Of a stretch of DNA of 64,000 nucleotides, positions 47,974 through 59,484 are shown piece by piece. Origin of the DNA: Phoronis australis (Eukaryota > Animalia > Phoronida); NCBI GenBank assembly GCA_002633005.1, contig NMRA01000005.1, positions 537,913-601,912 on the forward strand. The letters run 5' to 3'. The stretch's first letter is position 1; each line of letters starts with the position of its first letter. The notes below the pieces were generated by a model that saw only the letters and a program-made list of their open reading frames with translations, had not been told where the DNA came from and did no database searches. The position numbers were made by a program, and so were the translations under genes.

Positions 47974-47989
47974 ATGCGAAATTTACGAG
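47974..47989 (+). CDS. Factor C-like exon 1 (MRNLR)
   Basis: ATG after the TATA box; G|GTAAG donor, phase 1 fits exon 2. Confidence 0.6.
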
Positions 47990-56900: not shown

Positions 56901-59484
56901 TTGACTTCTAATGCACCCGACGTTTTAAAGTACTAAGCCTTAGCTATCGAATCTGACGTGACTTCCTTGTTACAGCGTGTGGAAAATCTGGCGCGTCACG
57001 AACGGCTTTTATTACTAATGGTAACGCCACCCGGAAGGGGCAGTGGCCTTGGCAAGTGGCGTTATCGCGCAATGACCTGAATCTGGAGAGATCGTTCAAG
57101 CTTGTTTGTGGGGGTGCGCTCCTAAACGAACACTGGGTGGTAACAGCTGCGCACTGTGTCACCGACCCAGACACAGGATCTATTGTACCCAACAATCATT
57201 TCAAGATCCATCTGGGACGTCACTACAGAGACATGGCGGTAAACGACGAATCTGTGCAAGAGTTCAACGTAAGTAACATTTGAATAATGCATAACGTACC
57301 CAACGAATTTTAACTTGATCGTTTAAGATGAATGTAAGCTAAAAATGTAACTAAGCTAATCCCCATCCACTCTCGGATGCTATTGCCTATTGCTGTTGGA
57401 ATGTCTATCTTGTCACTAAGCCGCGTCATATTTACAGGTAACAGTCATTTCGGTACACGAGAACTTTATTGTTCACACTTTGGAGTCCGACATCGCGCTG
57501 TTGAAGCTTTCTGGTACAGGCGCTCGATTCAGTGATCGGGTGAGACCCGTGTGTTTGTCGTCATCCGAAGAAGAAAGCATCGTTCGTCTGCGTCCGGGAA
57601 ACCAGGGCATTGTCACTGGGTGGGGAACAACGGAGCACGGTGTGAACGCTGCCTCGCTGAGGCAGGCTTACATTCCTGTGATAGACTCGGAAGAATGTGA
57701 GGACTCTTATACTGAGCTAGGTGAGCATCATTTGGCGTGAGGGAGTTAACGGTGTGCATGTACTATACCGGTACGTTTCGGAACGGTGTGATGGGAACTT
57801 GGATGTAATGCAATGGAAGGACTTGGGACTTCGTCGTTTCAAAATAGCACCACTTTTCATGAACCCAAATTTCAGAGTACTATAATATTTCAAAATATAT
57901 TTGTGTTTAGCCAGTGTGAGCTTTTAAATTCATATCCATCTGGACCCTTTCGTGAAAGTGACTCACGATTTAAGACAGAAATTTGGTCTTACAAAAACGT
58001 TGTTAGCACATCACTCAATCTGGAAGTTATTTGTAAAAAAAATTGTCAGTGGGTAGTAGTTATTTGCATATTTTCAGATACTTAGTTCTTTTGCAAAAGC
58101 ATGTTTTAATTAATTTGCAGGAATAGTTATGTGGAGCGTAAGATCAAATTTTTGTTTTAAGCCTTAAGTCCTTATTCATGAAACAGACCCCTGTGGAACA
58201 GTTTACGCTATCCACAAGAAACAGTTTGCAAATTTACATGTAACCTCATGGTCCAGTACGGAACTTGTTTCTTGTTAGGAAACATGGCGTCATGCGTGCA
58301 CGTGCACCCAGGGGGGGGGCTCGGGGGCTCGAACGAAGTGGGCAAAAAGGTCCGCCCTTGAGCGACAATAAGTCCGAGAAAATGAGGCATACATGTAAAT
58401 CCATTAAACATGCGCAAACGCGTAATTCACAGTGGTGCTCCCGTTTTTTTTTTTTTTTTAGTCCTCCCACTTTTTTGTTACCAAGAGGTCCACAAAGTCA
58501 GGAATTTGAGCCCCCCCCCCATATTGAAGGCTGGGTGCACGCATGGGCGTTGAACGTGTTTTGAAAAGCGCATGAATCAATGGTATCACCTATTAATTTC
58601 TAGGGTACAACGTACCTGTAACGAGTCAGATGTATTGTGCTGGATTCAGAGATGGTGGCATAGACGCGTGCAATGGTGACTCGGGCGGGCCCATGGTGTT
58701 CAGTGAAGGCAGTGGTAAGTGTTCGAACAGTGGGTGTTGTGTGGCCCGGTAGACCTAGGCGCATTGAATCTTTCATGGCATAAACGTTCGCTTGGTCGGG
58801 TGGCGTTAGGTGGTAGACCCAGTTTAGTTCACTAGTCGGGTCGTGTTGTGTAACTCGTGGGCTCTATATAGGCGTTCACTAAGGAGAAGCGTTATGTTAG
58901 TAGCAAGTCCTTTACCATCAGTTCCCAATCAGTTTGCAGTTATGTATGCTTTGCGCATGAGTGGACTTTGGGGAGGTCCAGTCGGATGGCCTTCAGTACA
59001 GTCCAGCGTGAAACGACGAAGTACGTTTTCGACTTAAGAGCTAGAGAATTTGCCCTGTTGGAAATTATGGTCTCCCTCCAATTGGGATTCGCCAGTGTTG
59101 TCTTCACACGAATACATGGTCAGAAGTTGAAAATCGTAAACATTAACATTGTAAAAGAGTCGTTTGGACTCGGAGTCAACAGGAGAAGTGTGCTTTTGGA
59201 CGCAATTGTCGTTTAACATTGCCTGGCAAACGCCCATGCACGTAAGATTTTCAAACCCGACATTTGATGAAGTAGTGCACGTGCAGACAAGTTCAAAACG
59301 TCTGGGACGTCCAGGTTTACATTTTCCCCATTTCTTGTTTGCAGGCGACGCACGGCGCTGGATCTTGGAGGGACTCGTCAGTTGGGGAAGTCCAAGTCAG
59401 CGATGCGGTTCTCCTCAGGAATACGGTGGCTATACTAAGGTGGCCAAGTTTTTAGATTGGATTCGCGAGGTCATCAGTTATTAA
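47974..59484 (+). CDS. Limulus clotting factor C-like serine protease zymogen, 703 aa; join(47974..47989,48867..49017,51457..51623,51975..52208,52372..52549,52662..52769,52913..53022,54446..54542,55230..55453,56976..57268,57438..57720,58604..58714,59345..59484)
   Basis: All 12 introns are GT-AG with compatible phases, total 2112 nt, open frame. Signal peptide, GIDLGLC...[14 protein letters not shown] (factor C Cys-rich region), CBM14-like domain, 2 CCPs, a split CCP, and a trypsin domain with TAAHC / DIALL / [10 protein letters not shown] and [15 protein letters not shown]. Confidence 0.88.
48867..49017 (+). CDS. Factor C-like exon 2 (signal peptide, start of Cys-rich region)
   Basis: ttttgcag acceptor; [47 protein letters not shown] donor. 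Confidence 0.85.
49981..50269 (+). repeat. Minisatellite, 10 x 29 bp (taactcacggatctcatgacagtcaagga)
   Basis: Ten head-to-tail units with only isolated substitutions and no spacers, in intron 2 of the factor C-like gene. Confidence 0.95.
50916..51388. mobile_element. MITE with ~125-bp TIRs
   Basis: cccgttccaaacgccgtaacaccattcaagagtctattaaatgcaagccgttacatgcttgcagctcact... has its inverse at ~51260-51388. Confidence 0.8.
51457..51623 (+). CDS. Factor C-like exon 3 (Cys-rich LPS-binding region)
   Basis: [16 protein letters not shown]...[10 protein letters not shown]...[22 protein letters not shown] donor. Confidence 0.9.
51975..52208 (+). CDS. Factor C-like exon 4 (Pro/Thr linker plus chitin-binding peritrophin-A/CBM14-like domain)
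   Basis: ttcttgcag acceptor; [22 protein letters not shown]...[31 protein letters not shown] donor; phase 1-1, 234 nt. Confidence 0.8.
52372..52549 (+). CDS. Factor C-like exon 5 (CCP/sushi 1)
   Basis: SCDIP...[13 protein letters not shown]...[17 protein letters not shown] donor. Confidence 0.88.
52662..52769 (+). CDS. Factor C-like exon 6 (end of CCP1, first half of CCP2)
   Basis: cttttcag acceptor; [17 protein letters not shown]...SFPVGT; AC|GTAAG donor. Confidence 0.8.
52913..53022 (+). CDS. Factor C-like exon 7 (second half of CCP2)
   Basis: ttcttttcag acceptor; [42 protein letters not shown] donor. Confidence 0.85.
54446..54542 (+). CDS. Factor C-like exon 8 (start of split CCP)
   Basis: ttatttag acceptor; [38 protein letters not shown] donor. 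Confidence 0.8.
55230..55453 (+). CDS. Factor C-like exon 9 (Arg-rich insert and end of split CCP)
   Basis: RSRLFH...[46 protein letters not shown], like factor C LPEGHY...YTCESRYYELLGS...CIP; G|GTAAG donor. Confidence 0.88.
56976..57268 (+). CDS. Factor C-like exon 10 (activation site and His loop)
   Basis: [29 protein letters not shown]...[18 protein letters not shown]...[11 protein letters not shown]. Confidence 0.93.
57438..57720 (+). CDS. Factor C-like exon 11 (catalytic Asp)
   Basis: [10 protein letters not shown]...ESDIALLKL...VRPVCL...GIVTGWG...[14 protein letters not shown] donor. Confidence 0.93.
57940..58193. mobile_element. Degenerate MITE related to 1615-2580 and 14560-14780
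   Basis: Termini ctggaccctttcgtgaa / ttcatgaaacagacccctg. Internal gagcgta(a)gatcaaatttt...cttaagtc is shared with 14741-14776. Confidence 0.45.
58604..58714 (+). CDS. Factor C-like exon 12 (catalytic Ser)
   Basis: [36 protein letters not shown]. Confidence 0.93.
59345..59484 (+). CDS. Factor C-like exon 13 (C-terminus)
   Basis: ttgtttgcag acceptor; [45 protein letters not shown]. Confidence 0.93.

What the first reader, a model, noticed from the sequence alone, without database searches (positions are those of the whole stretch)
47974..59484. Factor C-type LPS-sensing protease rewired with a chitin-binding domain
Seen: a 703-aa spliced ORF ordered signal peptide - Cys-rich region - Pro/Thr linker - CBM14-like domain - CCP - CCP - split CCP - trypsin domain with an intact triad. 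Established: horseshoe-crab factor C is Cys-rich - EGF - 3 CCP - LCCL - C-type lectin - 2 CCP - protease; it is an LPS biosensor and acts as a C3 convertase. Here the N-terminus and protease are clearly factor C-like (GIDLGLC vs [22 protein letters not shown] vs RRWVLEGIVSWGSPS), but EGF, LCCL, lectin and two CCPs are absent and a chitin-binding module is present. Inference: either a two-ligand (LPS plus chitin/fungal) pattern-recognition zymogen, or an LPS sensor tethered to a chitinous matrix such as a gut peritrophic layer, chaetae or shell. I do not know of this architecture being described, but cannot confirm novelty.
Basis: partly seen in the sequence, partly recalled or inferred. Interest (0 to 1): 0.85.

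Follow-up and report, generated by a model that had tools for sequence, protein, structure and literature searches.

The report
Factor C with chitin-binding exon swap
An expressed invertebrate gene encodes a relative of the horseshoe-crab endotoxin sensor factor C in which the usual EGF module is replaced by a degenerate, predicted chitin-binding module, which likely anchors this protease, predicted to sense bacteria, to chitin surfaces.

Summary
The gene is real. The 13-exon model gives an open 703-aa protein, and RNA reads span all 12 of 12 introns, with no exon-4 skip listed. It is a factor C family zymogen: 12-Cys N-terminal domain with the LPS-binding RWR motif, Phe-Ile activation site and intact triad. 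Its protease groups with Lingula factor C (99/94). LCCL and lectin are absent from all 10 of 10 named non-arthropod homologues, and Lingula has the same three CCPs, so these are not a rewiring. The real difference is one phase-1 exon: a Pro/Thr linker plus a CBM14-like domain stands where homologues have EGF. None of 59 homologues resembles it. The domain is atypical: below the Pfam cut-off, with Tyr at the third cysteine, and the fold search was inconclusive. Some CBM14 folds do not bind chitin. The N-terminal Arg reported as needed for LPS autoactivation is Ala here. Best reading: an LPS-binding zymogen tethered to chitin (about 0.4). New variant of a known kind, seen in one species; binding and activation are untested.

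The parts
47916..47923 (+). TATA-like box upstream of exon 1 (promoter role inferred)
   Evidence: sequence; 5-7 RNA molecules end at 47961
47974..47989 (+). exon 1, start codon, aa 1-5
   Evidence: joint to 48867 read 20/1/3 times in X4/X2/X3
48867..49017 (+). exon 2: hydrophobic signal peptide (cleavage after G27 inferred), Ala28 at the position of factor C Arg1 (48932-48934), first half of the Cys-rich domain
51457..51623 (+). exon 3: second half of the 12-Cys domain with RWR tripeptide aa 62-64 (51473-51481)
   Evidence: 9 of 9 hits among 1.84e9 representatives carry the factor C-type Cys-rich domain
51975..52021 (+). exon 4, 5' part: Pro/Thr/Ala-rich linker aa 112-127
   Evidence: sequence
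52022..52208 (+). exon 4, 3' part: atypical CBM14/peritrophin-A-like domain aa 128-189 (C131, C144, Tyr150 at the C3 position, C165, extra C176, C178, F180, C186); phase 1-1 exon in the place of the EGF exon
   Evidence: Pfam 17.4-18.1 bits, below cut-off; 3 of 3 PDB hits have the CBM14 fold; both flanking joints read; 3 of 3 listed variants synonymous
52372..52549 (+). exon 5: CCP 1
   Evidence: Sushi 32.2 bits
52662..52769 (+). exon 6: end of CCP 1, first half of CCP 2
52913..53022 (+). exon 7: second half of CCP 2
   Evidence: Sushi 28.4 bits
54446..54542 (+). exon 8: start of the split CCP and start of the Arg-rich insert
   Evidence: alignment with factor C homologues
55230..55453 (+). 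exon 9: Arg-rich insert with RxxR motifs (chain cleavage inferred) and rest of the split CCP
   Evidence: Sushi 20.0 bits
56976..57268 (+). exon 10: interchain C430, activation site F440-I441 (57008-57013), catalytic H488
   Evidence: Trypsin 55.4 bits
57438..57720 (+). exon 11: catalytic D544, C565
58604..58714 (+). exon 12: S1 Asp641, catalytic S647
59345..59484 (+). exon 13 coding part to the stop codon
59485..61250 (+). transcribed 3' region, likely the 3' UTR; AATAAA at 61079
   Evidence: continuous stranded depth, molecules begin at 61228-61249

Best explanation
This expressed gene encodes a factor C-family serine protease, predicted to be a secreted zymogen, whose EGF exon is replaced by an atypical CBM14-like exon that likely tethers it to chitin while the intact Cys-rich domain likely binds LPS. 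Shown: gene structure, expression, domain order, RWR motif, Phe-Ile site, triad and S1 Asp. Inferred from horseshoe-crab factor C: (1) secretion and possible cleavage in the Arg-rich insert into two disulfide-linked chains; (2) the CBM14-like domain holds the zymogen on host chitin (gut mucus, chaetae, tube or shell matrix) or on foreign chitin; (3) RWR binds lipid A of Gram-negative bacteria that settle there; (4) crowding of zymogens on that surface leads to cleavage at F440-I441, with the chitin anchor possibly making up for the missing N-terminal Arg; (5) the active trypsin-like protease cuts C3 or a downstream zymogen, marking the microbe locally. Origin, inferred: a symmetric phase-1 exon took the place of the phase-1 EGF exon after the split from the Lingula lineage.
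For: All 12 Cys of the N-terminal domain and the exact RWR are kept; RWR is the mapped LPS site (PMC10672452, passages; PMC11836539, passages). F-I site and catalytic Ser kept. Sister to Lingula factor C, 99/94; both have 3 CCPs, the other 18 of 20 proteins counted have 4-7. Exon 4 is in the transcripts (56 and 79 reads on its two joints in X4, no skip listed). 16 of 20 listed coding variants are synonymous, 3 of 3 in exon 4 (the list was truncated). Exon 4: only Pfam match is CBM_14, 3 of 3 PDB hits at E<=10 have the CBM14 fold, and a 3-row profile finds Avr4 at E 1.5e-4 and tachycitin at E 0.014. The same Tyr-for-C3, extra-hairpin-Cys variant occurs in an unrelated contig, L001, which matches Pfam positions 1-53, so this may be a subtype rather than decay. 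Two amphioxus gene models differ by exactly the 31-aa EGF block at the position of intron 3 here. Precedent for a microbe-binding protein tethered to host chitin: Ciona VCBP-C (PMC4757023, abstract).
Against: No binding or activation data. CBM_14 score is below the curated cut-off; C3 of the C1-C3 disulfide is Tyr; the segment is acidic (pI 4.2). EHEP and Der p 23 have this fold but do not bind chitin, and chitin-binding residues are not conserved across the family (PMC10619976, passages). The profile includes half of a canonical CBM14 (L002), which biases it. Ala28 stands where 11 of 19 homologues with the N-terminal motif have Arg; a paper title states that this Arg is essential for LPS autoactivation (Kobayashi 2014, seen only in reference lists). 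The LPS-binding region of Tachypleus factor C was mapped to Cys-rich plus EGF, and EGF is absent here. Only one species carries the architecture. Tissue of expression and presence of C3 in this animal are unknown (no genome held).
Confidence: 0.4

Rival explanations
1. The CBM14-like domain does not bind chitin. It would serve as a small disulfide-bonded spacer or protein-contact module in place of EGF, and the protein would work as an ordinary short, Lingula-type factor C.
For: Below Pfam cut-off, C3 lost; EHEP and Der p 23 are CBM14 folds without chitin binding; it occupies the EGF slot.
Against: The C-P-x-G-L-L-F-D hairpin and an aromatic residue (F180) after C5 are kept, in register with the Trp of Avr4 and tachycitin (alignments); a Pro/Thr linker ahead of a CBM is the usual design for reaching a polymer (own knowledge), although Lingula has a Thr linker without a CBM.
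Confidence: 0.25
2. Two-ligand sensor: chitin itself (fungal wall, arthropod or parasite cuticle, exposed self chitin) would cluster the zymogen and trigger autoactivation, alone or as an alternative to LPS.
For: Factor C activation is described as LPS-dependent intermolecular cleavage, so any repetitive surface that aligns zymogens could in principle drive it (inference). Loss of Arg1 suggests a changed trigger. Horseshoe-crab factor C does not act on fungi (PMC3351276, passages), so the swap would fill a gap.
Against: One atypical CBM would bind weakly (own knowledge). An animal that makes its own chitin would risk constant self-activation (inference). No functional data.
Confidence: 0.2
3. 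No longer LPS-triggered: a chitin-targeted wound or matrix protease activated by an upstream chymotrypsin-like enzyme, working like mosquito SP22D or fly Tequila.
For: Arg1 and EGF are both missing. SP22D binds chitin but not bacteria (PMC1761132, passages). Tick factor C responds to sterile injury (PMC7962413, passages).
Against: The exact RWR and all 12 Cys are kept, whereas the diverged horseshoe-crab copies thought not to sense LPS lose RWR. Lingula and centipede factor Cs also lack Arg1, so that residue may not be needed everywhere.
Confidence: 0.15

Closest known systems
Lingula anatina factor C-like protein (XP_013394674.1, P0006)
   Same: Cys-rich domain, Thr/Pro linker, CCP, CCP, split CCP, trypsin domain with F-I site; 44% identity over aa 192-701, 52% over the C-terminal 317 aa; sister in the tree, 99/94; no LCCL or lectin; no N-terminal Arg
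   Different: Lingula has EGF and no CBM14, and RWK instead of RWR
Horseshoe crab factor C (Tachypleus tridentatus, P0020)
   Same: 12-Cys N-terminal domain (37 of 84 identical), RWR, split last CCP, F-I site, catalytic Ser, 46% over the C-terminal part
   Different: Has Arg1, EGF, 5 CCPs, LCCL and C-type lectin; no CBM14; function shown by experiment
Chiton factor C-like proteins (Liolophura sinensis, P0001 and P0040)
   Same: Closest Cys-rich domains (50 and 42 of 84 identical); no LCCL or lectin
   Different: Keep Arg1 and EGF, have 5-6 CCPs; P0001 has V-I at the activation site
Anopheles SP22D / Drosophila Tequila
   Same: Chitin-binding domain(s) on a secreted immune-associated trypsin-type protease
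   Different: SRCR and LDLa modules, no factor C Cys-rich domain, no CCPs; SP22D binds chitin but not bacteria
Ciona VCBP-C
   Same: A microbe-binding part joined to a chitin-binding domain that sits on host gut chitin; the model for the tether reading
   Different: Immunoglobulin V domains, no protease

Membership tests
Factor C (limulus clotting factor C family) | N-terminal Cys-rich domain | tested here: met
   12 Cys as in 5 of 5 homologues counted, in register; 9 of 9 exon-3 hits carry this domain
Factor C (limulus clotting factor C family) | Basic-aromatic-basic LPS tripeptide (RWR) | tested here: met
   R62-W63-R64, aligned with the Tachypleus motif
Factor C (limulus clotting factor C family) | N-terminal Arg of the mature chain | tested here: not met
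   Ala28, no variant listed there; signal cleavage site inferred; also absent in Lingula and centipede proteins; its importance is known to me only from a paper title
Factor C (limulus clotting factor C family) | EGF module directly after the Cys-rich domain | tested here: not met
   Present by inspection in 45 of 48 homologues with the Cys-rich domain; no match in the protein or in six frames of the window
Factor C (limulus clotting factor C family) | CCP array ending in a split CCP before the protease | tested here: met
   3 CCPs, the last one split by an Arg-rich insert
Factor C (horseshoe-crab type) | LCCL and C-type lectin domains | tested here: not met
   Absent; not family-wide: LCCL in 27 of 54, Lectin_C in 8 of 54, none in 10 of 10 named non-arthropod rows
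Factor C (limulus clotting factor C family) | Phe-Ile activation site, catalytic triad, trypsin-type S1 Asp | tested here: met
   F440-I441, H488, D544, S647, D641
Factor C (limulus clotting factor C family) | Arg-Ser heavy/light chain cleavage site | tested here: inconclusive
   Several R-S and RxxR sites in the insert, which aligns poorly
Factor C (limulus clotting factor C family) | Protease groups with factor C proteins | tested here: met
   Sister to Lingula 99/94, inside a 96/94 group with amphioxus and hemichordate proteins (36 of 59 homologues used)
Factor C (limulus clotting factor C family) | Monophyly against factor B/C2, MASP and factor L | not tested
   No such sequences were in hand; the two outgroups are long branches and one nests inside
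Factor C (limulus clotting factor C family) | LPS-triggered autoactivation; C3 cleavage | not testable with these tools
   needs recombinant protein
CBM14 / peritrophin-A | Pfam PF01607 above the gathering score | tested here: not met
   17.4 and 18.1 bits against 22.1; E 0.005 and 0.003
CBM14 / peritrophin-A | Six-Cys motif with C1-C3, C2-C6, C4-C5 pairs | tested here: not met
   C2-x5-Tyr, C4-x12-C5-x7-C6 spacing matches the motif in PMC10619976, but C3 is Tyr150 and there is an extra C176; a C131-C176 pair is inferred only
CBM14 / peritrophin-A | Sequence homology to solved CBM14 domains | tested here: met
   weak: 3 of 3 hits, E 0.056-0.37; profile E 1.5e-4, 6 of 10 rows CBM14 or chitinase (biased by L002)
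CBM14 / peritrophin-A | Three-plus-two strand CBM14 fold | tested here: inconclusive
   Model pLDDT 65 with three N-terminal strands; Foldseek rank 1 is the CHIT1 CBM14 but E 0.77, rmsd 9.4; VIA best Z 3.6, none at 5 or more
CBM14 / peritrophin-A | Chitin binding | not testable with these tools
   not shared by all members

The most novel reading that the evidence does not exclude
A natural re-targeting of the factor C switch: one exon swap turned an LPS-triggered zymogen into one that is activated by chitin, or only by LPS on chitin, giving this animal a complement trigger for fungi or chitinous surfaces and a template for a chitin-sensing counterpart of the recombinant factor C assay.
Probability: 0.2. 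Interest if true: 0.8.

Novelty: new variant of a known kind. Interest (0 to 1): 0.5.

Why it matters
Factor C is the basis of endotoxin testing and a rare case of a pattern receptor and protease in one chain, but its mechanism is known almost only from horseshoe crabs. This compact natural variant lacks Arg1, EGF, LCCL and lectin yet keeps RWR and the Phe-Ile site, so it directly tests which parts are needed for LPS autoactivation. If the new module binds chitin, it links complement-type immunity to chitinous barriers in a lophotrochozoan and shows exon shuffling changing where, or by what, the sensor fires. If it does not, the gene is an ordinary short factor C with an odd spacer.

Tried and rejected
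No genome held for the window, so paralogues, C3 and the donor of exon 4 could not be sought. Word-based homologue searches with exon 3 and exon 4 found nothing; one search missed proteins later found by HMMER, so these blanks carry no weight. Single-sequence fold of exon 4 failed (pLDDT 48). Fold searches with the 3-row model gave no significant match and no CBM14 chain among the 50 VIA rows; inconclusive. The protein atlas gave no answer. Alignment A2 was misaligned and not used. Hidden exons: 3 candidate open exons in introns 1-2 and none in introns 3-12, none supported by joints; intron 5, where LCCL and lectin would sit, is 112 nt. An EGF remnant was sought and not found (best E 0.25). 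The Cys-rich-only tree is too short to resolve (no starred set holds the query). The run search listed no indexed RNA holder; the evidence comes from laying the reads. Earlier scan findings: 0 in 4 look-ups. Literature: searches listed no paper whose title or abstract start describes a factor C with a chitin-binding domain (0 papers); most listed papers were not opened. Not held: Gerdol 2018 on Lingula immunity, Kobayashi 2014, Shibata 2018, Danielli 2000, Ariki 2004. Gorbushin 2018/2019 and Sekiguchi 2015 were seen as titles only. These subscription papers could describe related architectures. One supplementary file of PMC9835746 had no text. PMC8960428 and PMC10433773 passages added nothing on factor C.
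Full report
1. Observation. Joining 13 exons between 47974 and 59484 gives an open frame of 703 aa with GT-AG introns throughout. RNA settles the model. Three stranded raw runs of one study each show all 12 of 12 joints, and contigs from a second study show 11 of 12. 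The two joints around the disputed exon 4 are read 56 and 79 times in run X4, and no skipping joint is listed at min_share 1. One 853-nt contig runs through exons 2-7 in order. The reads differ from the window at scattered sites; 16 of the 20 coding differences listed are synonymous, including 3 of 3 in exon 4. This fits purifying selection, but the list was truncated and the exon-4 count is small.

2. Family. Exon 3 searched against 1.84 billion representatives gave 9 hits: five full-length or near full-length factor C-like proteases named from chiton, hemichordate, crinoid, centipede and Lingula, one unnamed protease, one truncated amphioxus model, one amphioxus Cys-rich/TSP1/TIR fusion and one fragment. 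The Lingula protein then retrieved 48 proteins at E<=1e-60, including Tachypleus factor C. The query keeps 12 cysteines in the N-terminal domain, the RWR tripeptide, a split last CCP, the Phe-Ile site, the triad and the S1 Asp. RWR, RS, FI and the catalytic Ser are the hallmarks listed for canonical factor C (PMC11836539, passages). In a tree of the last CCP plus protease (36 of 59 homologues, near-duplicates and fragments left out) the query is sister to Lingula at 99/94. The tree had no factor B, MASP or factor L, so monophyly against them is untested. The animal is therefore likely a lophotrochozoan near brachiopods (inference). Factor C genes were already reported from arthropods and brachiopods (PMC9835746, passages).

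3. What is and is not unusual. LCCL was found in 27 of 54 aligned homologues and Lectin_C in 8 of 54. Among named rows they occur only in arthropods; 10 of 10 named non-arthropod factor C rows and 3 of 3 centipede rows lack both. CCP counts run from 3 to 7, and only Lingula and the query have 3 among 20 counted. The short layout is thus shared with Lingula. What is particular is the slot after the Cys-rich domain: 45 of 48 homologues have EGF there by inspection (the exceptions are one alternative gene model, one shortened model and one fragment), while the query has a phase 1-1 exon with a Pro/Thr linker and a Cys-containing module, and no EGF remnant in the window. Two amphioxus models of one gene differ by exactly the 31-aa EGF block, starting at the same position as intron 3 here, which suggests that EGF is itself a cassette exon. 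An exon exchange is the simplest account (inferred; homologous genomic DNA was not examined). No homologue carries PF01607 in the precomputed domains (48 of 48 rows). The Pfam summary showed 25 of 29 families without it, and exon 4 scores at most 3 bits against all 59 homologues.

4. Is exon 4 a chitin-binding domain? It is homologous to CBM14, weakly. Its only Pfam match is CBM_14, at 17-18 bits against a cut-off of 22.1, and 3 of 3 PDB hits have this fold. Spacing fits the published motif for C2, C4, C5 and C6 (PMC10619976, passages), but C3 is Tyr150 and there is an extra Cys two residues before C5. L001 is a phase-1 exon with the same Tyr and with two extra hairpin and two N-terminal cysteines; it is 42% identical over aa 137-186 and matches the whole Pfam profile. 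So the pattern may be a subtype in which the N-terminal Cys pairs with a hairpin Cys (inferred). A 3-row profile reached Avr4 at E 1.5e-4, partly because one row is a canonical half domain. The model from that alignment (pLDDT 65) gave no significant fold match. The same paper states that EHEP and Der p 23 share the fold without binding chitin. Chitin binding is therefore plausible, at roughly 65-75% by my estimate, and not shown.

5. Is it still an LPS sensor? For: the exact RWR, which is the mapped LPS site in Tachypleus (PMC10672452, passages) and is lost in the diverged horseshoe-crab copies thought not to sense LPS. Against: the mature chain likely starts with Ala28, where 11 of 19 homologues with the motif have Arg and 2 have Lys; the T. 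gigas signal peptide is given as residues 1-25 (PMC10090249, passages), which fits Arg as residue 1 there. The title of Kobayashi 2014 calls this Arg essential for autocatalytic activation; I saw it only in reference lists. EGF, part of the mapped binding region, is also gone. Lingula and centipede proteins lack this Arg too, and none of them is functionally tested to my knowledge.

6. Mechanism. The best-supported reading (0.4) is an LPS-binding zymogen held on chitin, activated at F440-I441 when crowded on bacteria at that surface, and cutting C3 or another zymogen. [quoted passage not shown] Ciona VCBP-C is the precedent for tethering a microbe-binding protein to host gut chitin (PMC4757023, abstract). 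Rivals: an inert spacer in an ordinary short factor C (0.25); chitin as a second trigger (0.2); an injury- or matrix-directed protease of the SP22D/Tequila kind (0.15).

7. Novelty and verdict. Chitin-binding domains on immune proteases are known, and so are short factor C proteins without LCCL or lectin. The combination of a factor C Cys-rich domain with a CBM14-like module was not found among 59 homologues or in the listings of five targeted literature searches, but the key subscription papers on lophotrochozoan complement could not be read. New variant of a known kind, in one species so far, with a verified transcript and an unverified function: interest 0.5.

Noticed in passing
L001:370-584: Terminal phase-1 exon in a eukaryote-like metagenome contig with the same atypical CBM14 pattern (Tyr at C3, extra hairpin cysteines matched in number by N-terminal cysteines); may mark an undescribed CBM14 subtype.
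   Followed up: partly
proteins P0008, P0015, P0016 (Branchiostoma): The factor C Cys-rich plus EGF module fused to two TSP1 repeats and a TIR domain in P0008, with a changed tripeptide (KWE); P0015 and P0016 are in its cluster. A second reuse of this N-terminal module, this time on a TIR protein.
   Followed up: no
proteins P0001, P0003, P0004, P0017, P0018, P0032, P0035, P0040, P0056: Factor C-like proteins occur in chiton, scallop, snail, crinoids, hemichordates and amphioxus, wider than the arthropods and brachiopods named in PMC9835746; the residue before the activation Ile/Val varies (F, Y, V, L).
   Followed up: partly
window 16599-20768 (-): Patched/sterol-sensing-domain gene in at least three large exons.
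   Followed up: partly
window 40638-41570 (+): Single-ORF OTU1/YOD1-type deubiquitinase (UBXL, OTU, C2H2 finger).
   Followed up: partly
window 43542-43832 (+): Short ORF with a CXC/TCR domain, possibly from a transposon.
   Followed up: no
window 49981-50269: Tandem array of ten 29-nt units, 98% alike, in intron 2.
   Followed up: no
window 50922-51379: Non-coding element with 77-nt inverted arms (96%) and inner 38-nt arms in intron 2, MITE-like.
   Followed up: no
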